Below the pieces are notes generated by a model, which was not told the origin of the DNA, made no database searches, and saw nothing but the letters and a program-made list of their open reading frames with translations. 64,000 nucleotides of DNA from a bacterium (GTDB taxonomy: Bacteria; UBA10199; JAIBAG01), in NCBI GenBank assembly GCA_019695305.1, contig JAIBAG010000005.1, positions 3,361 through 67,360 on the forward strand. Reading direction: 5' to 3'. How positions within the stretch are numbered: the first letter of the stretch is position 1; every line of letters starts with the position of its first letter. Below are positions 30,897-44,952 of this stretch, in pieces. The position numbers and the translations under genes are program-made.

Positions 30897-31052
30897 CAAA
30901 TTAACGCACTGCATCAATAAAAATAACGCAAGTCTTTCAGATTGTTGACAAAATTTAGAAATATTTAATTGACACACAGAGGGAATCAATTTACATCCCT
31001 AAAGTCATTAAAGCAGTTCTATCTATATATAAGGGGTCTGAAGGAGCGAAAA

Positions 31053-31979
31053 ATGCCACAATTTGTTAGAGGAAAGGTAGCTAGCGCCTTTATCCTTATT
31101 TTATCCGTTTATCTTTTTGCTAATTGTACTCCCAAACAAATCGCGTCTGATATCACGTCGCAAATTATGAGAAGTGGGGCTCCTGCTTTTGAAATGGAGT
31201 CGGATGTTGATATTGCCGAAACATCTGGGCTTACCATGATTAAAATGATGGAAGCTTTCCAGCATGATAATCCCAACAATAAAAATTATCTCATACTTCT
31301 CTCTCGTTCTTATGCCAACTATGGTTTTGGTTTTTTAGAATGGAACATGCTCAAGTATAAAAGCGTGGATGAAGGCAAAAGAGCTTTAAATGAAAGCCGT
31401 GCTAAACAATTTTATGCCAAAGGTAAGGCTTATGGCTTGCAATTGTTAACCCGCAATAGTGCTTTTGAAGGAACACTTAAAAAGGATATGGATTCTTTTA
31501 AGAAAGCGTTAAAAGGCATGGGAAGAGGGTCGCTAGAACCTTTGTTTTGGACCGCATTAAATTGGGGTAGTTACATTAACCTTAATAAAGATTCGCCGCT
31601 GGCCATTGCCGAATTTCCCCGTGCCGAAGCCATGATGCAGCGTGTTTATGAAATTGACGAAAATTTTTATTATGGTGGTCCCTTGCTCTTTTTTGGGGTC
31701 TCTTTTGGATCGCGTCCTACCATGTTTGGTGGTAATCCCCAAAAATCGAAAGAATTTTTTGAAAAAGCCTTAGCGGCTTATAAACGTAAATTTTTGATGA
31801 CGCAGGTGTTGTATGCACAAACATACTGTGTCCAAAACCAGGATAAAGCCATGTTTGAAACTCTACTCAACGAGGTTTTATCTACCGATGCTGCCGTGCT
31901 TCCCGAAGCAAGGCTTGCCAACGAAATAGCCAAGCAAAAAGCGGCTTGGCTTTTGTCCCACGAAAATCAATATTTTTAA
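31053..31979 (+). CDS. TPR-like lipoprotein, TRAP-transporter-associated TatT-like
   Basis: Starts at MPQFVRGKVASAFILILSVYLFANC (lipoprotein-type signal) with an AAGGAG RBS 7 nt upstream. Helical TPR-like body. Lies immediately upstream of dctPQM, as TatT does for TPAT systems. Confidence 0.6.
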   Translation: MPQFVRGKVASAFILILSVYLFANCTPKQIASDITSQIMRSGAPAFEMESDVDIAETSGLTMIKMMEAFQHDNPNNKNYLILLSRSYANYGFGFLEWNMLKYKSVDEGKRALNESRAKQFYAKGKAYGLQLLTRNSAFEGTLKKDMDSFKKALKGMGRGSLEPLFWTALNWGSYINLNKDSPLAIAEFPRAEAMMQRVYEIDENFYYGGPLLFFGVSFGSRPTMFGGNPQKSKEFFEKALAAYKRKFLMTQVLYAQTYCVQNQDKAMFETLLNEVLSTDAAVLPEARLANEIAKQKAAWLLSHENQYF

Positions 31980-32000
31980 CCCCATCTATAAGGAGATTGT

Positions 32001-33011
32001 ATGAAATCGTTTTCATTAAAATTATTAACTTTGGCACTTGTAAGCGCCGGGTTTATAGCCTCTTCCAGTGTTCAAGCGGCTCCCTGTGCTGCGCCTTCAA
32101 CCGTTCTTAAATTAGCAACTGTAGCTCCCGAAGGAACCACTCTTTATAAAGGGCTCATGAATGTTAAAACAGCCATCAATACTCAAACTGAAGGTTGTGT
32201 GGATATTCAAATTTTTGCCGGTAGCGTTCAGGGTGATGAAAAAGACGTGATCCGTAAAATCCGTATTGGTCAGCTTGATATTGCGGCCTTAACCGGTGTG
32301 GGTTTAGGAGATATTGTTCCCGAAGTACGTGTTTTAGAATTGCCCTTCCTCTTTAAAACAGAAGCACAGGTAAATTCGGTATACGCGGCTATGCGCCCAT
32401 ATTTTGATAAAGCCTACGAAGCTAAAGGCTTCAAACTGATGGGCTGGGCTGGTATTGGTTTTATCCAAATTTTCTCTAACAAATCTATTACCAAAAAAGC
32501 CGACATGAACGGCGTTAAAATGTGGATGTGGGAAGGTGATCCTTTGGCTCAGGCTATGTATGAATCGTTAAAAGTGGTTCCTGTGCCCTTGGCTTTACCC
32601 GATGTGCTATCGTCTCTTACCACTGGCCTTATTGATGGCGCTTATGGTCCTGGTTTAGGTGCTATTGCTCTTCAATGGCATACCAAGGTAAAATATATGA
32701 CCAAAGTCGATTTAAGCTACGGCAGTGGTGGTTTGGTTATTTCAAATGCAGCTTGGGCTAAGTTAAATCCGTCTCAACAGACTATTGTTAAAAATGTAAT
32801 TGATCAAGAAGCTGCTAAGCTTACAACACAAACCAACATTGATAGCGCTCAATCGGAACAAATTTTACAGGCTAGCGGTATTCAAATTGTACAATTGGAT
32901 CCAGCTTCTAAAACCGAATTGGAAGGTATCAGCAAAGAAGTTCAAGCCAAACTGGTTGGCAAACTGTATTCGCAGGAACTCCTAAACCAGGTTTTAGCTT
33001 TAATTAAATAA
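32001..33011 (+). CDS. dctP: TRAP transporter substrate-binding protein DctP family
   Basis: 336 aa with a signal peptide and the DctP/SiaP fold. Confidence 0.88.
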   Translation: MKSFSLKLLTLALVSAGFIASSSVQAAPCAAPSTVLKLATVAPEGTTLYKGLMNVKTAINTQTEGCVDIQIFAGSVQGDEKDVIRKIRIGQLDIAALTGVGLGDIVPEVRVLELPFLFKTEAQVNSVYAAMRPYFDKAYEAKGFKLMGWAGIGFIQIFSNKSITKKADMNGVKMWMWEGDPLAQAMYESLKVVPVPLALPDVLSSLTTGLIDGAYGPGLGAIALQWHTKVKYMTKVDLSYGSGGLVISNAAWAKLNPSQQTIVKNVIDQEAAKLTTQTNIDSAQSEQILQASGIQIVQLDPASKTELEGISKEVQAKLVGKLYSQELLNQVLALIK

Positions 33012-33026
33012 TTTAAATTAGCGAAT

Positions 33027-33062
33027 AGAGGGGCGGTTTATCCGCCCCTCACTCGTTTTATT
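33027..33062 (+). terminator. rho-independent terminator/attenuator between dctP and dctQM
   Basis: GAGGGGCGG-tttatc-CGCCCCTC stem-loop followed by ACTCGTTTTATTG. Confidence 0.7.
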
Positions 33063-33064
33063 GT

Positions 33065-33613
33065 ATGAAAGCTCTTTTCTTTATTGATAAGCTTCTTTTA
33101 AAAATTGAAGCCTCGCTTCTTAATATCATTCTTATCACCATGCTCGCTTTTGCCAGTACCCAAGTAATTTTACGAAATTTTTTTGATACCGGCATTGAAT
33201 GGGGCGATGTTTTTGCCCGTCATTTGGTTTTAGTGCTTTGCTTTTTTGGAGCCACTATTTCTACAAAGGAAGATAAACACATCCGTATTGATGCATTGTT
33301 AAAAGTGATTAGTAAACGTTGGTTGCCTTTGGTGGAGTTTTTTGTGTCGGTTTTTTGTATTATTGTGAGCTTTTTACTGACTCTGGCGGCTCGCAAATTT
33401 ATGATGGATGAAAGAATGGCCGATACCGTTTTGTTTGGTAAAGTGAAAACCTGGTATTTTTTAACCGTGATGCCAATTGGCTTTTCTATTATCACTTTTC
33501 GTTTTTTTATTAAAACCGTTGAAAGTTTATTCGCCTTAACCGGAAAAAAGGCTGATTTGAAAAAACTCGAGAATTCCGAACTCGATATATCCGTGAATAT
33601 CAATATAAAATGA
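33065..33613 (+). CDS. dctQ: TRAP transporter small permease DctQ
   Basis: 182 aa with 4 TMs. Position between dctP and dctM. Confidence 0.85.
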   Translation: MKALFFIDKLLLKIEASLLNIILITMLAFASTQVILRNFFDTGIEWGDVFARHLVLVLCFFGATISTKEDKHIRIDALLKVISKRWLPLVEFFVSVFCIIVSFLLTLAARKFMMDERMADTVLFGKVKTWYFLTVMPIGFSIITFRFFIKTVESLFALTGKKADLKKLENSELDISVNINIK

Positions 33614-34881
33614 GCTCAACAATAATATTTAGCGTTGTGGCCCTTTTAGGGGCTCCCTTATTCATCATTTTTGGTGCGGTGGCGCTCTTGTCATTTTCGC
33701 AGGCAGGGATAGATACCTCGGCGATCATGATTGAGTTTTACCGTATGGCAGCAGCGCCCACACTCATTACTATCCCACTTTTTACTTTTGCTGGTTACAT
33801 GATGGCCGAAAGTTCTACTCCTAAACGCTTGGTAAACCTCACTCAGGCTATTATAGGTTGGATGCCAGGCGGTTTGGCTGTTGTTACCTTGCTTGCTTGT
33901 GCATTTTTTACAGCATTTACCGGTGCCAGTGGCGTTACTATAATTGCTTTGGGTGGTTTGCTCTATCCTATTTTGCTCAAAGAAAAATATGATGATAAGT
34001 TTAGCATGGGTTTAGTGACCAGTTGCGGTAGCTTGGGTTTACTTTTTCCTCCCAGCTTGCCCATTATTTTATACGGTTTAGTAGCCACTGTTAGTATCGA
34101 CAAATTATTTTTGGCCGGTATTTTACCGGGACTGTTATTGATTATGGTGTTAGGTGCTTACAGCATTTACATGGGGCACAAGTCGGGTGTTCGCCGTGTT
34201 CCCTTTGAATTTAGTAATTTGGGTAAGTCTATTAAAGAAGCAATCTGGGAAATACCTTTGCCCATTATTATTTTGGTGGGCATTTACGGTGGCATTATTA
34301 CCGCCTCCGAAGCGGCTTCGGTAACAGCCTTATATGTATTTATTGTTCATGTTTTTATCTATCGTGATCTTAAAATTTTTACCGACATCCCGCGTATTAT
34401 TCGTGAATCGATGGTGCTGGTGGGTGGTATTCTCATCATTTTGGGTGTGGCCTTGGGGATGACGGGTTATATTGTAGATGCTCAAGTTCCGTTTAAAATT
34501 TTCAATTGGGTAAGCCAATACATTAGTTCTCAATTCATGTTTTTGGTGTGCCTCAATCTATTTTTGTTGGTGGTGGGTTGTTTAATGGATATTTTCTCGG
34601 CTACCATTGTGGTGGTGCCCATTATCACACCCATTGCTTACAAGTATGGTGTAGATCCCATTCATTTGGGGATTATTTTCTTAACTAATTTAGAAATTGG
34701 TTATTTAACTCCGCCGGTGGGGCTTAATCTGTTTATCTCGTCTTTCCGCTTTAAAAAGCCCATTTTTGAATTGTATCGTATTGCGATACCTTTTCTTATT
34801 TTACTTATTTTTTGTTTGATGATTATTACCTACGTGCCTTGGCTTTCTACATATTTGGTGAGTGTTGTGGGAGTGAAGTAG
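33610..34881 (+). CDS. dctM: TRAP transporter large permease DctM
   Basis: 423 aa polytopic membrane protein. Overlaps the dctQ stop by 4 nt. Confidence 0.9.
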   Translation: MSSTIIFSVVALLGAPLFIIFGAVALLSFSQAGIDTSAIMIEFYRMAAAPTLITIPLFTFAGYMMAESSTPKRLVNLTQAIIGWMPGGLAVVTLLACAFFTAFTGASGVTIIALGGLLYPILLKEKYDDKFSMGLVTSCGSLGLLFPPSLPIILYGLVATVSIDKLFLAGILPGLLLIMVLGAYSIYMGHKSGVRRVPFEFSNLGKSIKEAIWEIPLPIIILVGIYGGIITASEAASVTALYVFIVHVFIYRDLKIFTDIPRIIRESMVLVGGILIILGVALGMTGYIVDAQVPFKIFNWVSQYISSQFMFLVCLNLFLLVVGCLMDIFSATIVVVPIITPIAYKYGVDPIHLGIIFLTNLEIGYLTPPVGLNLFISSFRFKKPIFELYRIAIPFLILLIFCLMIITYVPWLSTYLVSVVGVK

Positions 34882-35141: not shown

Positions 35142-36317
35142 ATGCGTGATGTTGTGATTGTAGGCGCCGCCCGTACACCGGTTGGCAGTTTTATGGGTTC
35201 TCTTTCGTCTCTTACTGCTCCTCAACTAGGTGCTATTGCTATTAAAGAGGCTGTTAAACGGGCCGGAATTAAACCCGAACTTGTGGAAGAAGCCATCATG
35301 GGTAACGTACTGACGGGTGCTGTTGGTCAATCGCCGGCTCGTCAGGCTATTTTAGGTGCCGGCCTTCCTAAAGAAGTATCGGCATTAACCATTGGTAAAG
35401 TGTGTGGCTCGGGTTTAAAAAGCGTGATGCTCGCTGTTCAGGCTATTAAATCGGGCGAAGCCGATTGTGTGGTGGCTGGTGGCATGGAAAGTATGTCGAA
35501 GGCCCCTTATGCTTTAACCGAAGCCAGAGCCGGCCTGCGCATGGGCCATGGCAAGATGATTGATACCATGATCCACGATGGTTTGTGGGATCCGTATAAT
35601 AATGTGCACATGGGCAACTGCGCCGAAAAATGCGCTAAAGAATATAATGTGACACGCGAAATGCAGGATGCTCATGCGGCCGAATCGTACCGTCGGGCTC
35701 AAAAGGCAGTAAAAGAGGGTGTGTTTAAAGACGAAATTGCTGCTGTTACCATCTCTTCCAAAAAAGGTGATGTGGTGATTGATAGCGATGAAGAACCGGG
35801 TAAGGGTAGTATCGATAAATTAGCTACGCTGCGTCCTGCTTTTGATAAAGAAGGCACAGTTACTGCCGGTAATGCCTCTAGCATCAACGACGGTGCTGCG
35901 GCTCTCGTTCTCATGAGTGCCGATAAAGCTAATGAATTGGGTTTAAAACCCCTCGCTAAAATTGTAGCGAGCGCGCAAGCCAGCATAGAACCCGTATGGT
36001 TTACCATGGCTCCCTCTGTGGCCATGGAAAAAGCTTTGGAAAAGGCCAAACTCAAAGCCTCCGATATTGACTTATGGGAAGTGAACGAAGCCTTTTCGGT
36101 TGTGGCTGTAGCGAACAACAAAAAAATCGGTATTCCAGATGACAAAGTAAACGTGAACGGTGGCGCGGTGGCTATTGGTCATCCCATTGGTGCAAGTGGT
36201 GCCCGTATTTTGGTAACGCTTTTATACGCTTTAAAAGCCCGCAATGCAAAACGCGGATTGGCATCTTTGTGTATTGGTGGTGGCGAAGGTGTAGCGCTTA
36301 TTGTTGAACGCGTATAA
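35142..36317 (+). CDS. acetyl-CoA C-acetyltransferase (thiolase II)
   Basis: 391 aa with thiolase signatures (...VCGSGLKSV..., NVNGGAVAIGHPIGASGARIL, CIGGGEG). GGAGG RBS. Confidence 0.92.
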   Translation: MRDVVIVGAARTPVGSFMGSLSSLTAPQLGAIAIKEAVKRAGIKPELVEEAIMGNVLTGAVGQSPARQAILGAGLPKEVSALTIGKVCGSGLKSVMLAVQAIKSGEADCVVAGGMESMSKAPYALTEARAGLRMGHGKMIDTMIHDGLWDPYNNVHMGNCAEKCAKEYNVTREMQDAHAAESYRRAQKAVKEGVFKDEIAAVTISSKKGDVVIDSDEEPGKGSIDKLATLRPAFDKEGTVTAGNASSINDGAAALVLMSADKANELGLKPLAKIVASAQASIEPVWFTMAPSVAMEKALEKAKLKASDIDLWEVNEAFSVVAVANNKKIGIPDDKVNVNGGAVAIGHPIGASGARILVTLLYALKARNAKRGLASLCIGGGEGVALIVERV

Positions 36318-36332
36318 AAGAAAGGCATTTTC

Positions 36333-37160
36333 ATGCCTCAAAAACTCATCGGCATTTTGGGTGTTCATCCGGCGCTTACGCTTTTGGCCAAAGCTTGCGC
36401 TTTGCATGGATATTCCGTGCTGTGGGTAGATGCCGATAAAAACGCACTCGAAAAAAGTATCACAGCTCTTAAAAATTCATTTGATGACGGTAATAACTTA
36501 AGCATACAGGGCTTATCGGCTAAAGATGAATGTTTGGCGCGTATTCAGTTGTCGCTGGATATGAAAGCCCTGAGTGAAGCCAGTTTTATTTTGGCATCAT
36601 CTGATGCGCCTGTTAACGAACTAGTCACTACAACACCGCTTGCCTTTATCGATAGCGATATTGGCACTACAAGTCTTGCTCATAGTCTTAGTTCTCCCGA
36701 ACGTGCTTTAGGTTTTTTTCCGGTTATTTACGAGAATCAAATTAAACTTGTAGAAATGATTCGTGCCGTTAAAACCAGCGATAACACGCTTCAGCTTTTT
36801 GGTAATTTTTTAAAAGAGCTAAAACTGGATACCATTTATGTACACGATTTTACCGGTTCTGTATTTGAACGTGTGGTGTATGCCGGTATTAACGAGGCTA
36901 TTCAGGTTTTATACGAGGGAATTACCAGTGCCGAAAGCATTGACAGGGTGGTGAGTGTTGGGTTATCCCATCCTATCGGCCCCTTAAAACTGGCCGATTT
37001 ATTAGGCTTGGACAGGGTTAAAAAGCGTTTGGAAAATTTGTTCACCGCTACCGCCAATCCCAAGTTTTTGCCGTCGCCTTTACTCACCAAATTAACCGAA
37101 GCCGGTTTTACGGGAGTAAAAGCCGGACGAGGTTTTTATCAGTATAAATCATCCCTCTGA
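36333..37160 (+). CDS. 3-hydroxyacyl-CoA dehydrogenase family protein (degenerate N-terminal dinucleotide motif)
   Basis: 275 aa with the 3HCDH C-terminal domain (...GFTGVKAGRGFYQY). N-terminal GILGVHPA replaces the usual GxGxxG. Confidence 0.7.
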   Translation: MPQKLIGILGVHPALTLLAKACALHGYSVLWVDADKNALEKSITALKNSFDDGNNLSIQGLSAKDECLARIQLSLDMKALSEASFILASSDAPVNELVTTTPLAFIDSDIGTTSLAHSLSSPERALGFFPVIYENQIKLVEMIRAVKTSDNTLQLFGNFLKELKLDTIYVHDFTGSVFERVVYAGINEAIQVLYEGITSAESIDRVVSVGLSHPIGPLKLADLLGLDRVKKRLENLFTATANPKFLPSPLLTKLTEAGFTGVKAGRGFYQYKSSL

Positions 37161-37170
37161 AAGGACATTT

Positions 37171-37953
37171 ATGAGTTTTGAAACTTTATTAGTAGAAATA
37201 AACGAAGGCATTGCCACGGTTCAGGTAAATCGTCCCAAGGCGCTTAATGCTATCAACCGCCAAGTACTTATTGATTTAGGCAACGCTTTTAAACAGCTGG
37301 AAGGTGATTCAAATGTAAAAGGTATCATCTTAACCGGTAACGGCGATAAAGCTTTTGTGGCTGGTGCCGATATTGTGAGTATGCAGAATATGACGGTTCT
37401 TGAAGCAACAGAATTTGGCAAGTTAGGTCATGACACCATGAAGACTATCGAAAACTGCGGTAAGCCCGTGGTTGCTGCTGTTAACGGTTTTGCTTTAGGT
37501 GGTGGTTTGGAACTGGCTCTCTCGTGCGATTTTATCTATGCCTCAAGCACCGCTAAATTGGGTTTACCTGAAGTTAACTTGGGAATTTTCCCTGGCTTTG
37601 GTGGTACTCAGCGTTTGTCGCGCTTGATCGGTAAAAACCGTGCTAAGGAACTCGTTTACACCGCTAAAATCATCTCGGCAGAAGAGGGGCTTAATATTGG
37701 TATTGTAAACAAAGTATCCGCTCCTGAAACTTTATTGGCCGATGTTAAAGCCACCTTATCTACAATTTTAACTAAAGGTTTAGTGGCTATCCGCTTAGCT
37801 AAGAAAGTGATGAATGAAGGAACGGATTTAGATTTAGCCAGTGGTTTGGCGATGGAAGAAAATACTTTCCCGTTAACATTCTCCACCGACGATAAAAAAG
37901 AAGGTGTAGCGGCGTTTATTGAAAAGAGAAAAGCTAATTTTACGGGAAAGTAA
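37171..37953 (+). CDS. enoyl-CoA hydratase (crotonase)
   Basis: 260 aa with crotonase fold motifs (AAVNGFALGGGLELALSCD, ...GIFPGFGGTQRL). Confidence 0.9.
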   Translation: MSFETLLVEINEGIATVQVNRPKALNAINRQVLIDLGNAFKQLEGDSNVKGIILTGNGDKAFVAGADIVSMQNMTVLEATEFGKLGHDTMKTIENCGKPVVAAVNGFALGGGLELALSCDFIYASSTAKLGLPEVNLGIFPGFGGTQRLSRLIGKNRAKELVYTAKIISAEEGLNIGIVNKVSAPETLLADVKATLSTILTKGLVAIRLAKKVMNEGTDLDLASGLAMEENTFPLTFSTDDKKEGVAAFIEKRKANFTGK

Positions 37954-38041
37954 GAATAACCCACCCTGTCCCTCCTTTAATCTAAGGGAGGGGACCTTCT
38001 TACTCTCCCCCTTAAGTTAAGGGGGAGTGGGAGGGGGTTAC
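37954..38041. repeat. nested-palindrome MITE/REP-like element, copy 3
   Basis: GAATAACCCACCCTGTCCCTCCTTTAATCTAAGGGAGGGGAC...CTCCCCCTTAAGTTAAGGGGGAG...GGGGGTTAC. Begins directly after the crotonase TAA. Confidence 0.85.
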
Positions 38042-38058
38042 AACGCATAAGGAAAAAT

Positions 38059-39198
38059 ATGAACTTTGAACTTTCTGAAGAACAAACAATGATTCAAAAA
38101 ATGGCACGCGATTTTGCGCAAAAAGAACTCGCGCCTTTAGCTGCCGAACGCGATGAAAAAGCGGAATTCCCTACATCTTCACTTCCTAAAATGGCGGAGC
38201 TGGGTTTGATGGGCATGATGGTTCCTGAACAATGGGGCGGAGCAGGGCTCGATATGCTCTCATATGTATTAGCTTTAGAAGAAATTTCGGCCGCTTGTGC
38301 CTCTACCGGTGTTACCATGTCGGTGAATAACTCACTCTACTGCGGACCCATCACACGTTTTGCCAATGACGAACAAAAGAAAAAGTATTTAACACCCTTT
38401 GCTCAAGGTCAAAAACTGGGAGCGTATTGCTTGTCGGAACCAGGTACCGGTTCGGATGCAGCTAACCAGCAAACAACCGCTGTTGATAAAGGCAGCCATT
38501 ATCTTTTAAATGGTACCAAAAACTTTATCACCAACGGGCCTCATGCAGATGCCATGGTGGTGTTTGCCATGACTGATAAATCTAAAAAGCATAAAGGCAT
38601 TTCGGCTTTTATTGTAGATAAAAACTTTAAGGGTTTCTCGGTAGGTAAAGTTGAAAAGAAACTTGGTATTCGTGCTTCGGCTACCTCGTCCATCGTTTTA
38701 GAAAACTGCGAAGTTCCTAAAGATTGCCTCTTGGGTGAAGTTGGCCAGGGTTTTACTATTGCCATGAATACGCTCGATTACGGTCGCATTGGTATTGCCA
38801 CCCAGGCGTTGGGTATTTCGCGCGCGGCTATTGAAGCGGCGGTAAAATACGCCAAAGAACGCGAAGCCTTTGGGCAATCCATTTCTAATTTTCAGGCCAT
38901 CCAATGGATGATTGCCGATATGACCACACGTTTTGAAGCCTCGCGCATGCTCACTTATAAAGCGGCCGAGCTTAAGCAGGCCGGTAAACCTGCCAGTGTA
39001 GAAGCGTGTCAGGCCAAACTTTTTGCCTCGGAATCGTCAAACTTCATCACCAATAAAGCCGTGCAGATACACGGTGGTTATGGCTATTGCCGTGAGTATC
39101 CCGTAGAACGTCTCTTGCGTGATGCTCGTATTACCGAAATTTACGAGGGAACTTCCGAAATTCAGCGTTTGGTGATCGCAAAGAATACGTTAAAGTAA
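38059..39198 (+). CDS. short-chain (butyryl-CoA-type) acyl-CoA dehydrogenase
   Basis: 379 aa with acyl-CoA dehydrogenase motifs (YCLSEPGTGSDAA, ...QIHGGYGYCREYPVERLLRDARI). The stop TAA lies inside the terminal GTAACC of repeat copy 4. Confidence 0.9.
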   Translation: MNFELSEEQTMIQKMARDFAQKELAPLAAERDEKAEFPTSSLPKMAELGLMGMMVPEQWGGAGLDMLSYVLALEEISAACASTGVTMSVNNSLYCGPITRFANDEQKKKYLTPFAQGQKLGAYCLSEPGTGSDAANQQTTAVDKGSHYLLNGTKNFITNGPHADAMVVFAMTDKSKKHKGISAFIVDKNFKGFSVGKVEKKLGIRASATSSIVLENCEVPKDCLLGEVGQGFTIAMNTLDYGRIGIATQALGISRAAIEAAVKYAKEREAFGQSISNFQAIQWMIADMTTRFEASRMLTYKAAELKQAGKPASVEACQAKLFASESSNFITNKAVQIHGGYGYCREYPVERLLRDARITEIYEGTSEIQRLVIAKNTLK

Positions 39199-39287
39199 CC
39201 CCCTCCCGTCCTCCCCCTTAGCCTAAGGGGGAGGGGCTAAGAACGCTCCCTCCCTTAAGCTAAGGGGGGGGTGGGGTGGGTTACTCT
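39194..39287. repeat. nested-palindrome MITE/REP-like element, copy 4
   Basis: AGTAACCCCCTCCCGTCCTCCCCCTTAGCCTAAGGGGGAGGGG...CTCCCTCCCTTAAGCTAAGGGGGGGTGGGGTGGGTTACTC. It supplies the stop codon of the upstream acyl-CoA dehydrogenase gene. It also creates a spurious in-frame N-terminal extension (MGWVTLL) of the downstream ORF. Confidence 0.85.
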
Positions 39288-39291
39288 TCTT

Positions 39292-40944
39292 ATGACCAAG
39301 AACCTTAAAGAATGGGAAGAGGGGACTTTAAAATCCTTTCTCGCTAAAGCGCCGGAGTCACAGAAAGAGTTTACCACTCTTTCGTCCGAACCCATCGAGC
39401 GTTTATACACGGCCGATCAAGTAGGCCAGAATCATCAAGAAGACATTGGTTTTCCCGGCGAATATCCTTTTACGCGCGGTGTTTATCCCACCATGTATCG
39501 CGGTAAATTATGGACCATGCGGCAGTTTGCCGGGTTTGGAACTCCCGAAGATACCAACACGCGTTTCCACTATTTGTTATCTCAGGGGCAAACGGGTCTC
39601 TCAACCGCTTTCCATTTTCCTACACTCATGGGTTATGACAGCGACTCGCCCCGTTCGCGCGGTGAAGTGGGCGTGTGCGGCGTTGCAGTTGATTCTCTGG
39701 CCGATATGGAAATTCTTTTTAAAGGAATTCCACTGGAAAAAGTAACGGTATCCATGACAATCAATGGCCCGGCCAGCATTCTTTTAGCCTTTTATCTGGC
39801 CAATGCCGAGAAACAAAAATGTGATCTTAAAAAAGTGGGCGGCACCATACAGAACGATGTTTTAAAAGAATATATTGCTCAAAATTCATATTTGGTTCCA
39901 CCGGATCCTGCCATGCGTATAGTGGTGGACATGATCGAATATTGCTCTCAGCATGTGCCCAAATGGAATCCCATTTCTATCTCCGGTTATCATATCCGCG
40001 AAGCAGGATCTACTGCTGTTCAGGAGTTAGCCTTTACCATTGCTGATGGTGTGGCTTACGTGGATGCTTGCATCAAACGCGGGTTAGATGTGGATAGCTT
40101 TGCGCCGCGTCTCTCGTACTTTTTTAATGCACACATGGATTTCTTTGAAGAAGTGGCCAAGTATCGTGCAGCCCGTCGTTTATGGGCACGCCTCATGAAA
40201 GAACGTTTTGGTGCTAAAAAAGCGGAATCCATGAAATGCCGCTTCCACGTTCAAACCGCGGGTTGTAGTTTAACCGCTCAACAACCCGAAAATAATATTA
40301 TCCGTACCACGTTGCAGGCTCTCTCGGCCGTTTTGGGTGGCTGCCAATCGCTTCATACTAATTCCATGGATGAAACATTGGCATTACCTACCGAGAAAGC
40401 CGTGCAGATTGCTTTAAGAACTCAACAAGTCATCGCGTTTGAATCTGGCGTGACCAACACCATTGATCCTTTGGCCGGTTCTTATTTTGTCGAAGCCTTG
40501 ACCGATAAAATGGAAAAAGAAGCCATGGCCTACATCGAAAAAATCGATAGTTTGGGCGGCATGGTAGAGGCGATTAAAAAAGGGTTTCCCCAGATGGAAA
40601 TTGTTTTGGCCAGCCACAAGTATCAAAATCAGCTGGAGAAAAAGGAAAAAATTGTAGTGGGGGTGAATGAATTTATTACCGATGAAAAACCGAATACTGA
40701 TTTGTTAAAGGTAGATTCCGAGGCAGTGACCAAAAAACAGACGGAACGCTTGAATGCTTTAAAAGCGAAACGCGACAGCGAAAAAGTGAATGCTGGTTTA
40801 GCTGCTTTAAAAGCTTCTGCTTCGTCCAAAACCAATATTTTCCCCGATTTACTGGCCTGTGCTCATGCTTATTGTACTGTGGAAGAAATTTCGAACGTGT
40901 TGCGGGGCGTTTTTGGCGAGTATCACGACCCCGGTATATACTGA
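39292..40944 (+). CDS. B12-dependent acyl-CoA mutase, large (substrate-binding TIM-barrel) subunit; ICM-like (Gln at MutB-Arg207 position)
   Basis: FTRGVYPTMYRGKLWTMRQFAGFGT...QNDVLKEYIAQNSYLVPP aligns to the MutB block QNDILKEFMVRNTYIYPP. The carboxylate-binding Arg is replaced by Gln. The subunit split of about 550 + 133 aa matches IcmA/IcmB-type mutases. I take the start at MTKNLKEW. Confidence 0.8.
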   Translation: MTKNLKEWEEGTLKSFLAKAPESQKEFTTLSSEPIERLYTADQVGQNHQEDIGFPGEYPFTRGVYPTMYRGKLWTMRQFAGFGTPEDTNTRFHYLLSQGQTGLSTAFHFPTLMGYDSDSPRSRGEVGVCGVAVDSLADMEILFKGIPLEKVTVSMTINGPASILLAFYLANAEKQKCDLKKVGGTIQNDVLKEYIAQNSYLVPPDPAMRIVVDMIEYCSQHVPKWNPISISGYHIREAGSTAVQELAFTIADGVAYVDACIKRGLDVDSFAPRLSYFFNAHMDFFEEVAKYRAARRLWARLMKERFGAKKAESMKCRFHVQTAGCSLTAQQPENNIIRTTLQALSAVLGGCQSLHTNSMDETLALPTEKAVQIALRTQQVIAFESGVTNTIDPLAGSYFVEALTDKMEKEAMAYIEKIDSLGGMVEAIKKGFPQMEIVLASHKYQNQLEKKEKIVVGVNEFITDEKPNTDLLKVDSEAVTKKQTERLNALKAKRDSEKVNAGLAALKASASSKTNIFPDLLACAHAYCTVEEISNVLRGVFGEYHDPGIY

Positions 40945-41002
40945 CCGGCTGTATAAAAACCCTTGAAATTCGCGTTGCTTTTATATTAAAAGGCCTCACC
41001 CT

Positions 41003-41404
41003 ATGCAAAAGAAACTCCGCATCTTAATTGGTAAACCCGGCTTAGACGGCCACGATCGTGGCGCTAAAATTATTGCACGTACCCTGCGTGATGCTGGTTA
41101 CGAGGTAATATATTCAGGTTTACACCAAACTCCTGAGATGATTGTGAACACGGCTATCCAAGAAGATGTGGATGCGATTGGGCTTTCTATTTTATCTGGC
41201 GCTCACAACTATCTTTTCCCTGCCGTAATTAAGCTTTTAAAGGCTAATAAAGCTGAAGATGTGGTGGTATTTGGTGGCGGTATTATCCCCGAAGACGAAA
41301 TTGCTGGCCTTAAAAAAGAGGGCGTAGCCGAGATTTTTACTCCCGGCGCCGACACCCGTGATATCGTCAAATGGATTGAGTCTAACGTCCAGCCGCGTAT
41401 ATAG
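41003..41404 (+). CDS. acyl-CoA mutase small subunit (cobalamin-binding domain)
   Basis: 133 aa with B12-binding DxHxxG...([21 protein letters not shown]) and a Rossmann-like fold. The last 5 codons lie inside the first unit of the 41-bp tandem array. Confidence 0.85.
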
Positions 41405-41529
41405 ATGAGTACCAAGGCCGTCCTTTAGGGCAGCCGCGTATATAGATGAGTACCAAGGCCGTCCTTTAGGGCAGCCGCGTATATAGATGAGTACCAAGGC
41501 CGTCCTTTAGGGCAGCCGCGTATATAGAT
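41390..41529. repeat. perfect 41-bp direct tandem repeat, 3.4 units
   Basis: Unit CAGCCGCGTATATAGATGAGTACCAAGGCCGTCCTTTAGGG. Copies lie at 41390, 41431 and 41472, with a partial copy at 41513. Unit 1 overlaps the stop of the B12-subunit gene. Confidence 0.95.
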
Positions 41530-41549: not shown

Positions 41550-42665
41550 CTAATTTGCCAAACGTTTTTTCAAGAATCTAAATCCTAATAATCCCATCAA
41601 TAAAACAAGTATTGAATAGTCTATTTGGTTTGAGCTTTTTATGGATAGAGCACAGCTACTACCACTTCCCTGTACTTGTATTGCAGAAATAGCGGGTGCT
41701 GGAACAATAGCCGGTGTACTGGGTTTGCCCGCATTATCATCTTCTTGAGGTGTCTCCGGATTTTCTGGCGTAGTAGGTTCTTCGGGTGTTTCTGGATTGG
41801 TGGGATCTTCTGGGTTTTCAGGTGTGCTGGGTGTTTCATCGCAATTTTCTTCAGGGTCATTAGGATTGGTTCCATTTTTTAATTCTACCCAGTCCCAGCA
41901 ATCGTCTTCATCATCATCAAATACGTTTTTTGTTTTTGTAATATAATCATCGCCAATACCGGCATCAACGTTACTGCCTGCAAACACATAGAGAGTCACA
42001 CGCGGGTCTATTTGGTAGCCTTGTGTAAAAGCAGGAATGCTAAATTCTGAATAAGGATAAGTTTGTGAGGGTTGTGCAAAAGGAGTGATGGTGGATTCCA
42101 AATTGTAAAAGCTTTCATTTTGGGGGAGAAATGTAATGAAAGTAGAGTTGGGAATATAGCGCCCAAAATCAGCATAGTTATGGCCAAACGCAAGACCTGT
42201 CATAATATCAACTGAACCGCCGTTCATTCCAATGATGCCTTCAGCGGGAAGGGTTTTGGCATCACCGTTTAAGTCCCATAATATAAAAAAGGCTTCACCT
42301 GCAGAGTTTCCTTTTCGTCCTAAGTTGGCTAAGTCTTCATATTCTAAACCTGGAACAGTTTCTCCGGAAGAGGGGTCGCCATTTCCATCAGCGTCACCAA
42401 AAATTTTACCATCGTATGTTTTAACGCCCACATGCATGGTGTCTTCGGAGCCATCGTAAAAGAAACACACTTTTTCCATGTCCCAACCGCTAGTATTTAA
42501 ACCAAGGTTTTGGAGCGCTTCAGGAATACCCACATCTAAAGGATCTGTTATGCAATTAATGTCTTTAAAATCAGCCTCAATATCGCCCGTAAAAACAAAA
42601 GCATGAGCCTTAAGAGAAAAAATTAAGATGAACGTGATAAAAAAGAGCTTTGTAAACGTACGCAT
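41550..42665 (-). CDS. secreted acidic protein with Pro/Glu-rich linker and C-terminal Cys + TM + basic sorting tail
   Basis: Signal peptide MRTFTKLFFITFILIFSLKAHA. Near the C-terminus, PENPEDPTNPETPEEPTTPENPETP is followed by GSGSSCALS...YSILVLLMGLLGFRFLKKRLAN. This is a TM helix with an Arg/Lys tail, resembling MYXO-CTERM or PEP-CTERM-type signals. Confidence 0.6.
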   Translation of the reverse strand: MRTFTKLFFITFILIFSLKAHAFVFTGDIEADFKDINCITDPLDVGIPEALQNLGLNTSGWDMEKVCFFYDGSEDTMHVGVKTYDGKIFGDADGNGDPSSGETVPGLEYEDLANLGRKGNSAGEAFFILWDLNGDAKTLPAEGIIGMNGGSVDIMTGLAFGHNYADFGRYIPNSTFITFLPQNESFYNLESTITPFAQPSQTYPYSEFSIPAFTQGYQIDPRVTLYVFAGSNVDAGIGDDYITKTKNVFDDDEDDCWDWVELKNGTNPNDPEENCDETPSTPENPEDPTNPETPEEPTTPENPETPQEDDNAGKPSTPAIVPAPAISAIQVQGSGSSCALSIKSSNQIDYSILVLLMGLLGFRFLKKRLAN

Positions 42666-42735
42666 AGAGTTCCTTTCGAAATATAGAGGGAACTCTTTAC
42701 GATAAAAAAAGACAATTGGTCAACTTATTTATAAA

Positions 42736-43053
42736 TCAGTCTATGTTATTGATTAAATTACGTTTTTTTTGAGTGGGATATTGCTTAATTTGATATTCCC
42801 GAATGAGTGCTTCCGAGCGATTATTGAGAGTCTCTTGATATTTAAGGGTAACAGGCCTGCGTGTCCGTGTGTATTTAGCGCCTTTACCCAAATTATGTTG
42901 TTCAAAGCGGCGTTCTAAATCGTTGGTGATGCCAGTATACAAGGTGCCATCCGCACATTCCAAGATATACAAAAACCATTGCTCAAGAGCTGCATGGTTC
43001 TTGAGATCTTCGGCTTTTAAGCCTTTAATCATTTGTTTGTATTTTGGTTTCAA
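42736..43053 (-). CDS. GIY-YIG nuclease superfamily small protein (UPF0213-like)
   Basis: WFLYILECADGTLYTGITNDLERRFEQHN...GAKYT matches the GIY-YIG core. The true start may be an internal Met. Confidence 0.7.
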   Translation of the reverse strand: MKPKYKQMIKGLKAEDLKNHAALEQWFLYILECADGTLYTGITNDLERRFEQHNLGKGAKYTRTRRPVTLKYQETLNNRSEALIREYQIKQYPTQKKRNLINNID

Positions 43054-43075
43054 GATTTTGCTTTATTGTGATGAT

Positions 43076-43705
43076 TTACTTTCTTATTGTCAAAAATAAT
43101 TCTTTAGGAGCAATTCCTTTTAAAGCTTTTGGAGCTATGAGCGACATTTTTCTCATTTGGTTTTGAATATAAATACAGTCAAGCACATGCTTTGCTTCAA
43201 AAATAGATTGCAAATCATCCAAGTCTTTGTAACGTCGAGGGTCATTTTTGTAAGAATAGAACTTGGAAATAATAATATCTTCCACGGTAATGCACGGTAT
43301 TTTTTTATTCCATCCAAAATCAATCAAGTTAAGGCTCGATCTTTCCAAGGCTTCTTTAAACCATGGCATGGAAGGTAAAATAAAATCGAGACCGATCGCC
43401 CCAGGCTTACTACTATCTTTTCCGACGACCATATAGGGTTCGGTATTTTTCCTTTTAATCGCAAAAAGAGGGCCTCCTTCTAAATCGGCTTTTCGTATAA
43501 TATGAGGGTTAAGAGCCTGAGCCTTAATAAGTTCTTCAGCTTTTTGCTGAGAGGAGGATTCTGAAATAATTAAAAAATCAAGGTCGCGTGTAGTGCGTTC
43601 TTCTTTGCGGTAGACAGAAGCAACTAAGCCGCCCGCCACAGCATATTGCAGTCTTTCTTGCTCGAGCACTTCAATCATCTGTTTTAAAAAATGAATGATG
43701 TTCAT
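43076..43705 (-). CDS. pol-beta superfamily nucleotidyltransferase
   Basis: 209 aa. AVAGGLVASVYRKEERTTRDLDFLI fits hGG-x13-14-DhD of minimal nucleotidyltransferases. Overlaps the upstream wHTH gene by 4 nt. Confidence 0.6.
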   Translation of the reverse strand: MNIIHFLKQMIEVLEQERLQYAVAGGLVASVYRKEERTTRDLDFLIISESSSQQKAEELIKAQALNPHIIRKADLEGGPLFAIKRKNTEPYMVVGKDSSKPGAIGLDFILPSMPWFKEALERSSLNLIDFGWNKKIPCITVEDIIISKFYSYKNDPRRYKDLDDLQSIFEAKHVLDCIYIQNQMRKMSLIAPKALKGIAPKELFLTIRK

Positions 43706-44094
43706 GATCTTATATGATTAAAAAGTTCATGTATCTCTGCGCAAAAATTGAGAACCCTTTCTGCTTTTTCATGATACATCTGAGCTCGTAGAGCAATATG
43801 GGTTTTATTTTCTAGTTCAAAAAGCTGAGTTAAAAAAGAATGATAGGGATGATCTGGGTTAAGCGAGAAAAAAGATCGGTTTTTCCGTTTTTTTTGAATA
43901 ATTAATTTTTCGTTTGTCAGTTGTTCTAAGGCGCGTTGAACAGAAAAAACAGGAGCTTGAATAAGATAAGAAAGTTGCCGAAGGGGCAATGGTTCATCGC
44001 TTCTGGAAAGAGCTTTTAACACTTTAAAACGAGTGGGATTCGCTAAAATACTAGAACTGTCTAACATGCTAAAAGTGTACAAATATTTATACAC
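43702..44094 (-). CDS. winged helix-turn-helix transcriptional regulator (ArsR-like)
   Basis: 130 aa. ...ANPTRFKVLKALSRSDEPLPLRQLSYLIQAPVFSVQRALEQLTNEKLI... fits the ArsR/SmtB-type wHTH pattern. Confidence 0.6.
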   Translation of the reverse strand: MYKYLYTFSMLDSSSILANPTRFKVLKALSRSDEPLPLRQLSYLIQAPVFSVQRALEQLTNEKLIIQKKRKNRSFFSLNPDHPYHSFLTQLFELENKTHIALRAQMYHEKAERVLNFCAEIHELFNHIRS

Positions 44095-44133: not shown

Positions 44134-44922
44134 CTATTTTCCTTTAAACCATGGGGCTCTTTTTTCACGAATAGCCAAAATTCCTTCTTTAATATCTTCG
44201 GTTGTAAAACATTGGGCCTGCATGCTGGAATCGTATTCAAAAAGCTCTTCCAAAGTTTCATGCTGAGCCCTTTGAATACCTTTTTTAATGGCAGCAACAG
44301 AAATCGGGGCGTTAGCGGCCAGTTTTTCGGCTATTTTTTGCACTTCGGCCAGCAATTGATCGGGGTCAAAAACACCATTGATGAGCCCCATATCTAAAGC
44401 GCGTTCGGCCGTAAAGAGTTCGCCTAACATCAAAATTTCTGCAGCATTCACAGGGCCTGCTAAGCGGGTCACCAAATAAGTACCTCCCATACCGGGAGCT
44501 AGGCCTAATTTAGAAAAGTTAGCACCCAATTTGGCCCCTTTGGCAGCATAACGAAGATCACTGGCTAAGGTCATACAAAAACCAGCCCCCACTGCAGGGC
44601 CATTGATAGCTGCAATCACGGGAACGCGAATTTTACGCATATCCAAAAAGAGCTGATAAAAGGCCATAAGCTCGCGCTTGTTGGTCTCAGGTGTACGTTT
44701 AACCCGGTCTTCAAGCATATCCAAATTACCACCGCTCGAAAAGGCACGGCCGGCTCCGGTAATCACCATTACCCGTATATCTTTGTTGGCTTCCACTCTG
44801 GCTAAAATCTTTTGAAAAGCATCGCCCATGGCATCATCTAACGCATTGAGCTTATCGGGCTGATTGAACGTAACAAGTGCTACATGGCCTATTTCTTGAT
44901 AAATAATAATATCTTGTGACAT
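44134..44922 (-). CDS. enoyl-CoA hydratase/isomerase family protein
   Basis: Crotonase fold (...VIAAINGPAVGAGFCMTLASD...). I take the start at MSQDIIIYQE (ATG 44922) rather than the longer ORF-track start at 44988. Confidence 0.85.
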   Translation of the reverse strand: MSQDIIIYQEIGHVALVTFNQPDKLNALDDAMGDAFQKILARVEANKDIRVMVITGAGRAFSSGGNLDMLEDRVKRTPETNKRELMAFYQLFLDMRKIRVPVIAAINGPAVGAGFCMTLASDLRYAAKGAKLGANFSKLGLAPGMGGTYLVTRLAGPVNAAEILMLGELFTAERALDMGLINGVFDPDQLLAEVQKIAEKLAANAPISVAAIKKGIQRAQHETLEELFEYDSSMQAQCFTTEDIKEGILAIREKRAPWFKGK

Positions 44923-44952
44923 ATTTTTTTCCCTGAGATAATAATTTAATCG

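What the first reader, a model, noticed from the sequence alone, without database searches (positions are those of the whole stretch)
39292..41404. Split B12-dependent acyl-CoA mutase with Gln in place of the methylmalonyl carboxylate-binding Arg, embedded in a butyryl-CoA operon
The block QNDVLKEYIAQNSYLVPP aligns unambiguously with MutB QNDILKEFMVRNTYIYPP. Arg207 of MutB binds the substrate carboxylate and is Gln in isobutyryl-CoA-type mutases. Here Gln is present while the upstream FTRGVYPTMY keeps Tyr, so this is a mixed MCM/ICM signature. Together with the 557 + 133 aa subunit split and co-transcription with thiolase, 3-hydroxyacyl-CoA dehydrogenase, crotonase and butyryl-CoA dehydrogenase, this argues for a butyryl/isobutyryl-CoA-type, or possibly novel-specificity, mutase rather than methylmalonyl-CoA mutase. 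No MeaB G-protein chaperone is nearby.
Basis: partly seen in the sequence, partly recalled or inferred. Interest (0 to 1): 0.55.

Follow-up and report, generated by a model that had tools for sequence, protein, structure and literature searches.

The report
Two-subunit isobutyryl-CoA mutase operon
These two genes encode an ordinary split vitamin-B12-dependent isobutyryl-CoA mutase, which probably interconverts branched and straight four-carbon acyl-CoAs beside butyryl-CoA oxidation genes; the "mixed" active-site signature came from pointing at the wrong tyrosine.

Summary
Window 39292-40944 (550 aa) and 41003-41404 (133 aa) encode the large (substrate) and small (B12-binding) subunits of an adenosylcobalamin acyl-CoA mutase. 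The "retained Tyr" is not. MutB Tyr89 lies in RQ-Y-AGF, as the Y89F crystal chain 5REQ shows, and the query has Phe79 there (RQFAGF). The signature is therefore a complete Phe/Gln isobutyryl-CoA mutase (ICM) signature, not a mixed one. HcmA Asp117, which marks 2-hydroxyisobutyryl-CoA mutases, is Ala. All 120 nearest homologues share Phe/Ala/Gln.

The order thiolase-(Hbd)-crotonase-short-chain acyl-CoA dehydrogenase-mutase large-mutase small is kept in more than 25 loci from uncultured bacteria. Some of these carry a Tyr/Arg (methylmalonyl-type) paralogue next door. No MeaB chaperone or adenosyltransferase lies in the 64-kb window, but the 63%-identity relatives have both inside the operon.

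Split ICM clusters in anaerobes are already described from genomes. This is a new, generically annotated member of a known kind.

Side findings:
- The operon's Hbd gene has lost its NAD motif and catalytic His.
- A subclade marker, His108, sits two residues from a known specificity position.
- Palindromic repeat elements lie inside the operon.

The parts
39292..40944 (+). Acyl-CoA mutase large (substrate-binding TIM-barrel) subunit, IcmA-type, 550 aa. Key residues: Phe79 (MutB Tyr89), Ala106 (HcmA Asp117), His108 (MutB Asp118), Gln187, Gln197 (MutB Arg207), Tyr233/His234 (MutB Tyr243/His244).
   Evidence: PF01642 E 4e-224 and TIGR00641 E 3e-235. Best solved relative is HcmA 4R3U (594 bits, 51% identity), then human MUT and MutB (46%). 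Residue mapping.
41003..41404 (+). Mutase small subunit, IcmB-type B12-binding domain, 133 aa, with the DxHxxG motif (DGHDRG) for His-on cobalamin binding.
   Evidence: TIGR00640 E 1e-48 and PF02310. Best solved relative is HcmB 4R3U_C, E 2e-39. The motif is read from the translation.
38059..39198 (+). Short-chain (butyryl-CoA-type) acyl-CoA dehydrogenase, 379 aa.
   Evidence: Pfam ACAD N/M/C domains. Best PDB hits are rat and human SCAD and Clostridioides difficile Bcd (451-432 bits), against isobutyryl-CoA DH ACAD8 at 288 bits. Adjacent to the mutase in every full-length related locus.
37171..37953 (+). Crotonase / short-chain enoyl-CoA hydratase, 260 aa.
   Evidence: PF00378 E 8e-72 and NF004475 E 2e-95.
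36333..37160 (+). Hbd-like protein, 275 aa, catalytically degenerate. It lacks the GxGxxG NAD motif, has a 10-residue deletion, and lacks the catalytic His (GMHFFNP becomes GFFPVIY) and the Asn of PGFxxNR.
   Evidence: Weak N-domain Pfam hit. Alignments to solved Hbd and to relatives' Hbd. It is an orphan: the next best protein among 5.8 billion is 36% identical.
35142..36317 (+). Acetoacetyl-CoA thiolase (acetyl-CoA C-acetyltransferase), 391 aa; first gene of the cluster.
   Evidence: Thiolase_N/C E 6e-101 and TIGR01930 above its cutoff.
30969..34881 (+). TRAP transporter genes (TAtT, DctP, DctQ, DctM) upstream on the same strand, 260 bp before the thiolase. Probably a separate unit; substrate unknown.
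   Evidence: Pfam PF16811, PF03480, PF04290 and PF06808. The same RecO-TAtT-DctPQM-...-Thl arrangement occurs in relative L041.
39196..39283 (.). About 90-nt palindromic REP/MITE-like element in the ACAD-mutase spacer. A second copy lies at 37956-38042 in the crotonase-ACAD spacer.
   Evidence: Motif CTAAGGGGGAGG found 11 times against 2.9 expected. Folds at -65 kcal/mol, z = -5.6.

Best explanation
The two genes encode a heteromeric, adenosylcobalamin-dependent isobutyryl-CoA mutase (IcmA/IcmB type).

**Mechanism.** The small subunit binds B12 base-off/His-on through its DxHxxG histidine. The large subunit threads the acyl-CoA through its TIM barrel. The 5'-deoxyadenosyl radical abstracts a hydrogen, and the thioester carbon migrates, interconverting isobutyryl-CoA and n-butyryl-CoA.

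**Why not methylmalonyl-CoA.** The two residues that hold the carboxylate of methylmalonyl-CoA in MCM (Tyr89, Arg207) are replaced by Phe79 and Gln197. This gives a pocket for an uncharged methyl group.

**Pathway.** n-Butyryl-CoA is the substrate of the short-chain acyl-CoA dehydrogenase encoded immediately upstream. Crotonase and thiolase (with an Hbd activity supplied from elsewhere in this genome) would carry it to two acetyl-CoA. The cluster therefore most likely channels isobutyryl-CoA, from valine or isobutyrate, into straight-chain beta-oxidation. The reaction is reversible, so supply of isobutyryl-CoA from acetyl-CoA is also possible.

**Shown versus inferred.** Shown: family membership, the active-site residue pattern, its conservation, and the synteny. 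Inferred: the substrate, the direction of flux, and co-transcription.
For: - **Family.** PF01642/TIGR00641 and TIGR00640 at E 1e-48 to 1e-235.
- **Residue mapping.** It is anchored on solved chains. The 5REQ (Y89F) versus 1REQ difference locates Tyr89 at RQ-Y-AGF. Chain indices 88/206/242/243 (+1) reproduce Tyr89, Arg207, Tyr243 and His244. HcmA indices (-11) reproduce Ile90, Asp117 and Gln208.
- **Query pattern.** Phe79 / Ala106 / Gln197, with Gln187, Tyr233 and His234 kept.
- **Conservation.** All 120 nearest homologues (62-77% identity) are Phe/Ala/Gln. The query departs from their >=90% consensus at only two positions.
- **Wider family.** Among 150 representatives at 50% identity, Phe/Ala/Gln is the second commonest class after Tyr/Ala/Arg. 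The query clade nests among Phe/Gln sequences in a neighbour-joining tree.
- **Paralogues.** Relatives L042 and L030 carry a Tyr/Arg paralogue a few kb from the Phe/Gln gene. The two signatures are thus kept apart within one genome.
- **Synteny.** SCAD/Bcd-type ACAD, crotonase and thiolase adjoin the mutase in more than 25 loci.
- **Transport and feeder genes.** Near relatives have branched-chain amino-acid ABC transporter genes or TRAP genes directly upstream. The more distant clade has 2-oxoacid:ferredoxin oxidoreductase, CoA transferase, adenosyltransferase and MeaB in the cluster.
- **Literature.** Split ICM clusters serving isobutyrate-to-butyrate isomerisation are described for Syntrophothermus lipocalidus and relatives of sulfate reducers (PMC5017805).
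- **Own knowledge, not re-read here.** Phe80/Gln198 in Streptomyces cinnamonensis IcmA and Phe598/Gln742 in IcmF. The IcmF match offsets (query 178-545 to chain 743-1110, 20-residue tag) place query Gln197 at native residue 742, in agreement.
Against: - No enzyme of this clade has been assayed.
- The closest characterised protein available to the tools is HcmA at only 51% identity. I could not obtain the IcmA, RcmA, PCM or Ecm sequences for a direct alignment.
- The query subclade differs from canonical ICM/HCM near the active site. It has His108 instead of a nearly universal Asp, two residues after the HcmA Asp117 position, and Gln-Asn-Ser instead of Gln-Lys-Glu after the specificity Gln.
- No MeaB, adenosyltransferase, CoA ligase/transferase or Etf gene lies in the window.
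- The operon's Hbd is degenerate.
Confidence: 0.7

Rival explanations
1. It is a mutase of the ICM lineage with a shifted or new substrate range. Candidates are C5 acyl-CoAs (isovaleryl/pivalyl-CoA, or 2-methylbutyryl/n-valeryl-CoA). The shift would come from the subclade-specific His108 and Asn198-Ser199 near the substrate pocket.
For: - His108 replaces an Asp that is present in HcmA, MutB, human MUT and all but two of the family representatives whose alignment rows were seen.
- It lies two residues along the same stretch as the known specificity position HcmA Asp117, and so probably faces the same side. That is inference; no coordinates were available.
- In the fetched genome loci, the His108 form always carries the thiolase-crotonase-ACAD context wherever the flanks are long enough. 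Phe/Gln relatives with Asp108 and long flanks mostly lack it.
- Relatives' clusters hold three ACADs and an SCP-x-type thiolase, which could serve C5 substrates.
- The family shows very many signature combinations of unknown function.
Against: - Phe79 is retained. From memory of the IcmF F598A work, a smaller residue at this position is what favours pivalyl-CoA.
- The ACAD next to the mutase is SCAD/Bcd-like rather than isovaleryl- or 2-methylbutyryl-type.
- His108 does not covary strictly with residues 198/199.
Confidence: 0.15
2. It is a 2-hydroxyisobutyryl-CoA mutase (HCM/RCM type) that makes 3-hydroxybutyryl-CoA for the adjacent Hbd and thiolase.
For: - The closest solved structure is HcmA/HcmB.
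- Hbd and thiolase genes are adjacent.
- A deltaproteobacterium (Desulfococcus biacutus) uses such a mutase with Hbd in acetone degradation (PMC7176365).
Against: - HcmA Ile90 and Asp117 are Phe79 and Ala106 here and in all 120 homologues.
- No 2-HIBA-CoA ligase or MeaH gene is nearby, although these are reported as usual partners.
- The genes kept next to the mutase in every locus are the SCAD and crotonase, which 3-hydroxybutyryl-CoA would not need. The Hbd is degenerate (window, L041) or absent (L043).
Confidence: 0.05
3. It is a methylmalonyl-CoA mutase, as the database name suggests, or a hybrid with a mixed MCM/ICM signature.
For: - NCBI names it a methylmalonyl-CoA mutase family protein.
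- The residues after the specificity position (Asn-Ser-Tyr) resemble MCM Asn-Thr-Tyr more than ICM Lys-Glu-Trp/Tyr.
Against: - Both carboxylate ligands are missing (Phe79, Gln197).
- The score against the NCBIfam MCM equivalog is 649 bits, below the cutoff of 876.
- True Tyr/Arg paralogues sit beside Phe/Gln genes in relatives.
Confidence: 0.02

Closest known systems
Isobutyryl-CoA mutase IcmA/IcmB of Streptomyces cinnamonensis (two-subunit ICM)
   Same: Two-subunit layout of about 560 + 135 aa; Phe/Gln at the MCM Tyr89/Arg207 positions (numbering offset of one residue, from memory); DxHxxG B12 domain on a separate small subunit.
   Different: The representative that looks actinobacterial (P0244) is about 54% identical.
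- The query subclade has His108 and Gln-Asn-Ser instead of Asp and Gln-Lys-Glu.
- Here the genes sit in a beta-oxidation cluster rather than serving polyketide precursor supply.
Predicted split ICM clusters of anaerobes (Syntrophothermus lipocalidus Slip_0757-0760 and relatives of sulfate reducers; PMC5017805)
   Same: Large and small subunit genes used to isomerise isobutyryl-CoA to butyryl-CoA ahead of beta-oxidation. The 63%-identity relatives of the query carry the same adenosyltransferase and MeaB-like partners.
   Different: - The window and its nearest relatives (67-77%) have no adenosyltransferase or MeaB within 10 kb.
- The mutase is fused into a thiolase-Hbd-crotonase-SCAD operon.
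- Neither set has been tested biochemically.
2-Hydroxyisobutyryl-CoA mutase HcmA/HcmB of Aquincola tertiaricarbonis (PDB 4R3U)
   Same: Closest solved structure: 51% identity for the large subunit, E 2e-39 for the small subunit. It has the same split architecture and shares Gln at the Arg207 position.
   Different: Ile90 becomes Phe and Asp117 becomes Ala in the query. There are no hcl or meaH partners.
IcmF (fused ICM with G-protein, PDB 4XC6)
   Same: Same chemistry expected; Phe/Gln signature (memory; offsets consistent).
   Different: IcmF is one 1093-aa chain ordered B12 domain-G protein-substrate domain. Its substrate domain is far more distant (290 bits against 594 for HcmA).
Methylmalonyl-CoA mutase MutB (PDB 1REQ) and human MUT (2XIJ)
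   Same: Same fold and radical machinery (Tyr243/His244 and Gln197 equivalents kept); 46% identity.
   Different: Tyr89 and Arg207 are replaced. The B12 domain is on a separate polypeptide. There is no inactive MutA-like partner subunit.

Membership tests
AdoCbl-dependent acyl-CoA mutase superfamily | Large substrate-binding domain matching the MM_CoA_mutase profile over its full length | tested here: met
   PF01642 positions 2-512 of 512, E 4e-224. TIGR00641 scores 781 bits against a cutoff of 304.
AdoCbl-dependent acyl-CoA mutase superfamily | B12-binding Rossmann-like domain with the DxHxxG His-on motif | tested here: met
   TIGR00640 scores 165 bits against a cutoff of 57. DGHDRG lies at residues 15-20 of the small subunit.
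AdoCbl-dependent acyl-CoA mutase superfamily | Conserved catalytic/thioester-binding residues (MutB Gln197, Tyr243, His244) | tested here: met
   Gln187, Tyr233 and His234 in the query; invariant in 120 homologues.
Isobutyryl-CoA mutase (ICM) | Phe at the MutB Tyr89 position | tested here: met
   Phe79 in RQFAGF. Tyr89 was located through the 5REQ Y89F chain.
Isobutyryl-CoA mutase (ICM) | Gln at the MutB Arg207 position | tested here: met
   Gln197 in YIAQNSY.
Isobutyryl-CoA mutase (ICM) | Separate large (about 560 aa) and small (about 135 aa) subunits (stand-alone ICM, as opposed to IcmF) | tested here: met
   550 + 133 aa, with a 58-bp spacer.
Isobutyryl-CoA mutase (ICM) | Clusters phylogenetically with biochemically characterised ICM (S. 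cinnamonensis IcmA) | not testable with these tools
   The IcmA sequence could not be obtained. The neighbour-joining tree only shows that the clade nests among unnamed Phe/Gln sequences.
Isobutyryl-CoA mutase (ICM) | Catalyses isobutyryl-CoA <-> n-butyryl-CoA | not testable with these tools
   Needs an enzyme assay.
Isobutyryl-CoA mutase (ICM) | Associated G-protein chaperone (MeaB/MeaI-like) and adenosyltransferase | tested here: inconclusive
   Absent from the 64-kb window and from +/-10 kb in the nearest relatives. Present in the operon of the 63% clade. The rest of the source genome was not available.
2-Hydroxyisobutyryl-CoA mutase (HCM) | Ile at HcmA position 90 and Asp at position 117 (hydroxyl recognition) | tested here: not met
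   Phe79 and Ala106.
Methylmalonyl-CoA mutase (MCM) | Tyr89 and Arg207 carboxylate ligands | tested here: not met
   Phe79 and Gln197. The NCBIfam MCM equivalog NF006944 scores 649 bits against a cutoff of 876.
IcmF (fused ICM) | Single chain ordered B12 domain-G domain-substrate domain | tested here: not met
   Separate subunits and no G domain. NF045497 scores 376 bits against a cutoff of 1500.

The most novel reading that the evidence does not exclude
The His108 / Gln-Asn-Ser subclade may be a functionally distinct mutase rather than a plain ICM. It is always embedded in a thiolase-crotonase-SCAD cluster, and in its nearest members it has no linked MeaB or adenosyltransferase. Two readings are open. 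It could have a different preferred acyl-CoA, for example a C5 branched/straight pair. Or the His near the cofactor face of the barrel could change how the cofactor is loaded or protected, which would make a linked chaperone unnecessary.
Probability: 0.1. Interest if true: 0.5.

Novelty: new member of a known kind. Interest (0 to 1): 0.25.

Why it matters
- **Annotation.** The protein and hundreds of relatives are labelled "methylmalonyl-CoA mutase family protein". The two-residue signature plus conserved synteny allow a more specific call. For these uncultured, mostly Deltaproteobacteria-labelled bacteria, this implies a B12-dependent route from valine or isobutyrate into straight-chain beta-oxidation.
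- **Method.** The case is also a caution. A specificity call made from a remembered motif was half wrong, and the error is what made the locus look unusual.
- **What remains mildly interesting.** Two points are left: the His108 subclade marker next to a known specificity position, and the stepwise decay of the operon's Hbd gene.

Tried and rejected
- **Primary literature.** I tried to read the papers on specificity residues (Jost 2015 PMC4646380, Kurteva-Yaneva 2015 PMC4392272, Weichler 2015 PMC4551191, Cracan & Banerjee 2012 PMC3281689 and PMC3448797). None is held. Searches for F598/Q742/Phe80/Gln198 and for D139N found nothing useful. The ICM, IcmF and PCM residue numbers therefore rest on my own knowledge.
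- **Reference sequences.** I tried to get names for the Phe/Gln representatives through cluster look-up. Only generic names came back.
- **IcmF alignment.** I tried to display it through a fused representative (P0153). That protein turned out to have a different fusion order and matched MCM best.
- **RNA elements.** No cobalamin riboswitch or any other Rfam family occurs in the window. Promoter and terminator scans did not differ from shuffled sequence.
- **Tandem repeat.** I looked for a partner of the 41-bp repeat at the far end of the inserted genes. None exists.
- **Mixed-signature idea.** Rejected.
- **Pseudogene idea for the mutase.** Rejected. It is full length and deviates from the clade consensus at only two positions.
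- **Structure prediction.** Not run. The tools return no coordinates, so it could not place His108 relative to the substrate.
Full report
**What is at the coordinates**

The interval holds two same-strand ORFs. One is 39292-40944: 550 aa from the ATG, or 557 aa only if the GTG at 39271 is used. The identical NCBI protein is 550 aa. The other is 41003-41404, 133 aa.

The first ORF matches the acyl-CoA mutase substrate domain end to end (PF01642 E 4e-224; TIGR00641 781 bits against a cutoff of 304). The second matches the mutase B12-binding domain (TIGR00640 165 bits against a cutoff of 57) and carries DGHDRG, the DxHxxG His-on motif.

The nearest solved structures are the large and small subunits of 2-hydroxyisobutyryl-CoA mutase, 4R3U (594 bits, 51% identity; small subunit E 2e-39). 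Human MUT and Propionibacterium MutB follow at 46% identity. IcmF is much more distant at 290 bits.

**The specificity residues**

QNDVLKEYIAQNSYLVPP pairs without gaps with MutB QNDILKEFMVRNTYIYPP. Query Gln197 faces the Arg at chain index 206, which is Arg207 because the chain lacks Met1.

The PDB holds both wild-type MutB (1REQ) and the Y89F mutant (5REQ). Their sequences differ at RQ[Y/F]AGF, which fixes Tyr89 in that motif.

At the true Tyr89 column the query has Phe79 (WTMRQFAGFGT). The same index arithmetic reproduces Tyr243 and His244 for MutB. It also reproduces Ile90, Asp117 and Gln208 for HcmA, which supports the mapping.

The query is therefore Phe79 / Ala106 / Gln197. It has Phe/Gln where MCM has Tyr/Arg, and Ala where HCM has its hydroxyl-binding Asp. 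From my own knowledge, not re-read here because the papers are not held, Phe/Gln is the ICM signature: IcmA Phe80/Gln198 and IcmF Phe598/Gln742. The IcmF match offsets put query Gln197 at native residue 742, in agreement. A held paper confirms that these two sites are the recognised specificity determinants of the family (PMC7238569).

**Conservation and family placement**

- All 120 nearest homologues (62-77% identity, mostly from uncultured "Deltaproteobacteria", Deferrimicrobiaceae and Polyangiaceae genomes) are Phe/Ala/Gln.
- The query departs from their >=90% consensus at only two positions, so it is an intact, constrained gene.
- A search of 1.84 billion representatives found 24,518 relatives. 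Among the best 150, Tyr/Ala/Arg (68) and Phe/Ala/Gln (16) are the two main classes. Ile/Asp/Gln (HCM-like) and many unassigned combinations also occur.
- In a rough neighbour-joining tree the query clade nests among Phe/Gln sequences. A group of split Tyr/Arg mutases is the next neighbour. HcmA and fused Phe/Gln forms lie further out.
- In relatives L042 and L030, a Tyr/Arg paralogue (RQYSG ... KEYIARG) lies a few kb from the Phe/Gln gene. Both signatures are thus maintained side by side, as expected for two different enzymes.

**Gene context**

Upstream on the same strand, with 10-105-bp gaps, lie:
- a thiolase (35142-36317);
- an Hbd-like gene (36333-37160);
- a crotonase (37171-37953);
- an acyl-CoA dehydrogenase (38059-39198). 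Its best solved relatives are mammalian SCAD and clostridial Bcd (451-432 bits), well above isobutyryl-CoA or isovaleryl-CoA dehydrogenases.

The order thiolase-Hbd-crotonase-ACAD-mutase large-mutase small recurs in more than 25 independent loci, including the closest relatives.

L041 even shares the window's upstream RecO-TAtT-DctP-DctQ-DctM arrangement. L040 and L042 have branched-chain amino-acid ABC transporter genes in that place.

The 63%-identity clade has a larger cluster: MerR, thiolase, Hbd, crotonase, two ACADs, a CobA-type corrinoid adenosyltransferase, the mutase pair, an SCP-x-type thiolase with its OB-fold partner, a third ACAD, a MeaB-like GTPase and a two-subunit CoA transferase. 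A 2-oxoacid:ferredoxin oxidoreductase lies upstream.

This context fits conversion of isobutyryl-CoA (from valine or isobutyrate) to n-butyryl-CoA, followed by beta-oxidation. Genome comparisons have already proposed that role for split ICM clusters in Syntrophothermus lipocalidus and relatives of sulfate reducers (PMC5017805).

**MeaB**

No MeaB-like P-loop or sequence, and no CobA-like adenosyltransferase, occurs anywhere in the 64-kb window. None lies within 10 kb in the four nearest relatives examined. Because the more distant members of the same clade have both genes in the operon, the simplest reading is that these genes lie elsewhere in this genome. I could not check that.

**Rival readings**

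An HCM/RCM reading is suggested by the best PDB hit and by the Hbd/thiolase neighbours. Three points count against it. It fails both defining residues. The reported hcl and meaH partners are absent. The genes invariably retained beside the mutase are the SCAD and crotonase, while Hbd is degenerate or missing in the nearest relatives.

MCM fails both carboxylate ligands and the NCBIfam equivalog cutoff.

The reading I cannot exclude is a shifted substrate range. The query subclade (88 of the 120 nearest homologues) has His108 where HcmA, MutB, human MUT and almost all representatives have Asp. That position is two residues after the HcmA Asp117 position. The subclade also has Gln-Asn-Ser (or Gln-His) where canonical ICM/HCM have Gln-Lys-Glu. 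Among the fetched genome loci, the His108 form is the one tied to the beta-oxidation context. Whether His108 touches the substrate or cofactor could not be measured.

**Other observations**

- **Degenerate Hbd.** The Hbd-like protein of the window has lost the GxGxxG NAD motif, ten residues of the N-domain, the catalytic His of GMHFFNP and the Asn of PGFxxNR. Its C-terminal domain is kept.
- **Hbd is an orphan.** The next best of 5.8 billion proteins is 36% identical.
- **Decay is graded across relatives.** L040 and L042 are near-canonical, L041 has also lost the NAD motif and the His, and L043 has no Hbd gene in the cluster.
- **Repeat elements.** Copies of a roughly 90-nt palindromic element occupy the crotonase-ACAD and ACAD-mutase spacers and two other intergenic sites.
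- **Tandem repeat.** A perfect 41-bp x 3.4 tandem repeat begins in the last 15 nt of the small-subunit gene. It lies at the edge of a block (orf371, GIY-YIG, AbiEii) that is absent between the small subunit and the enoyl-CoA hydratase gene in L042.

**Verdict**

This is a two-subunit isobutyryl-CoA-type mutase in a conserved butyryl-CoA oxidation cluster. It is a new, generically annotated member of a known kind.

Confidence in the ICM assignment is about 0.7, with about 0.15 for a shifted specificity within the same lineage. Interest is low to moderate.

Noticed in passing
window 36333-37160 (+); compare L040 6873-7721, L041 6935-7783, L042 7154-8002, L043 (no gene): The operon's 3-hydroxybutyryl-CoA dehydrogenase gene is an intact ORF. 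It has nevertheless lost the GxGxxG NAD motif, a 10-residue segment, the catalytic His and the Asn. It has no close relative anywhere (best 36% identity). Relatives show graded decay of the same gene, or its loss from the cluster.
   Followed up: yes
window 5480-5566, about 6795-6840, 37956-38042, 39196-39283: A family of roughly 90-nt G/C-rich palindromic elements (GTAACCCCC...CCTCCCCCTTAG-n-CTAAGGGGGAGG...GGGGGTTAC) lies in intergenic spacers. Two copies flank the ACAD gene inside the operon. They form very stable hairpins (down to -65 kcal/mol, z -5.6). They look REP- or MITE-like and might affect mRNA stability or processing.
   Followed up: partly
window 41390-41529: A perfect tandem repeat, 41 bp x 3.4 copies, whose unit starts with the last four codons and stop codon of the mutase small-subunit gene. 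No partner copy occurs elsewhere in the window. It could be a recent slippage or duplication, an integration scar or an assembly artefact.
   Followed up: partly
window 41550-44094 (- strand): A block holding a 371-aa ORF without any Pfam or NCBIfam hit, a GIY-YIG nuclease-domain ORF, an AbiEii-type toxin and a 130-aa partner ORF. It sits between the mutase small subunit and the enoyl-CoA hydratase gene (44134-44988). In relative L042 those two genes are adjacent, so this looks like an inserted mobile or defence islet.
   Followed up: partly
L033 7646-9280: One relative, in the same conserved operon (with adenosyltransferase and MeaB), reads RQFSG ... KEYIARH.
   Followed up: no
L042 14432-16003 (-), L030 2086-3612 (-), L001 4167-4847 (-): In L042 and L030 a second, Tyr/Arg (MCM-type) split large-subunit gene lies a few kb from the Phe/Gln mutase. 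L001 also has a second mutase gene beside it, but that copy is cut at the contig end and its signature could not be read. The window has no such paralogue within its 64 kb.
   Followed up: partly
protein P0153 (913 aa; representative found): A Phe/Gln mutase fused in the order substrate domain-B12 domain-MeaB-like GTPase (PDB matches at residues 18-521, 534-662 and 683-907). This differs from the B12-G-substrate order of IcmF.
   Followed up: partly
window 8200-16911 (+): A 2903-aa ORF with no Pfam match at all. It has ordinary composition (about 40% G+C, Leu/Ala/Ser-rich) and lies between an acyl-CoA dehydrogenase gene and a ComM-like Mg-chelatase-family gene.
   Followed up: partly
L005 9411-9950 and about 15170-16176 (likewise in about 20 loci): In the 63%-identity clade, a CobA/BtuR-type corrinoid adenosyltransferase gene sits immediately upstream of the mutase large subunit. 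A MeaB-like GTPase gene follows a third ACAD downstream. The cluster thus carries a full cofactor-handling set, which the window's cluster lacks.
   Followed up: yes
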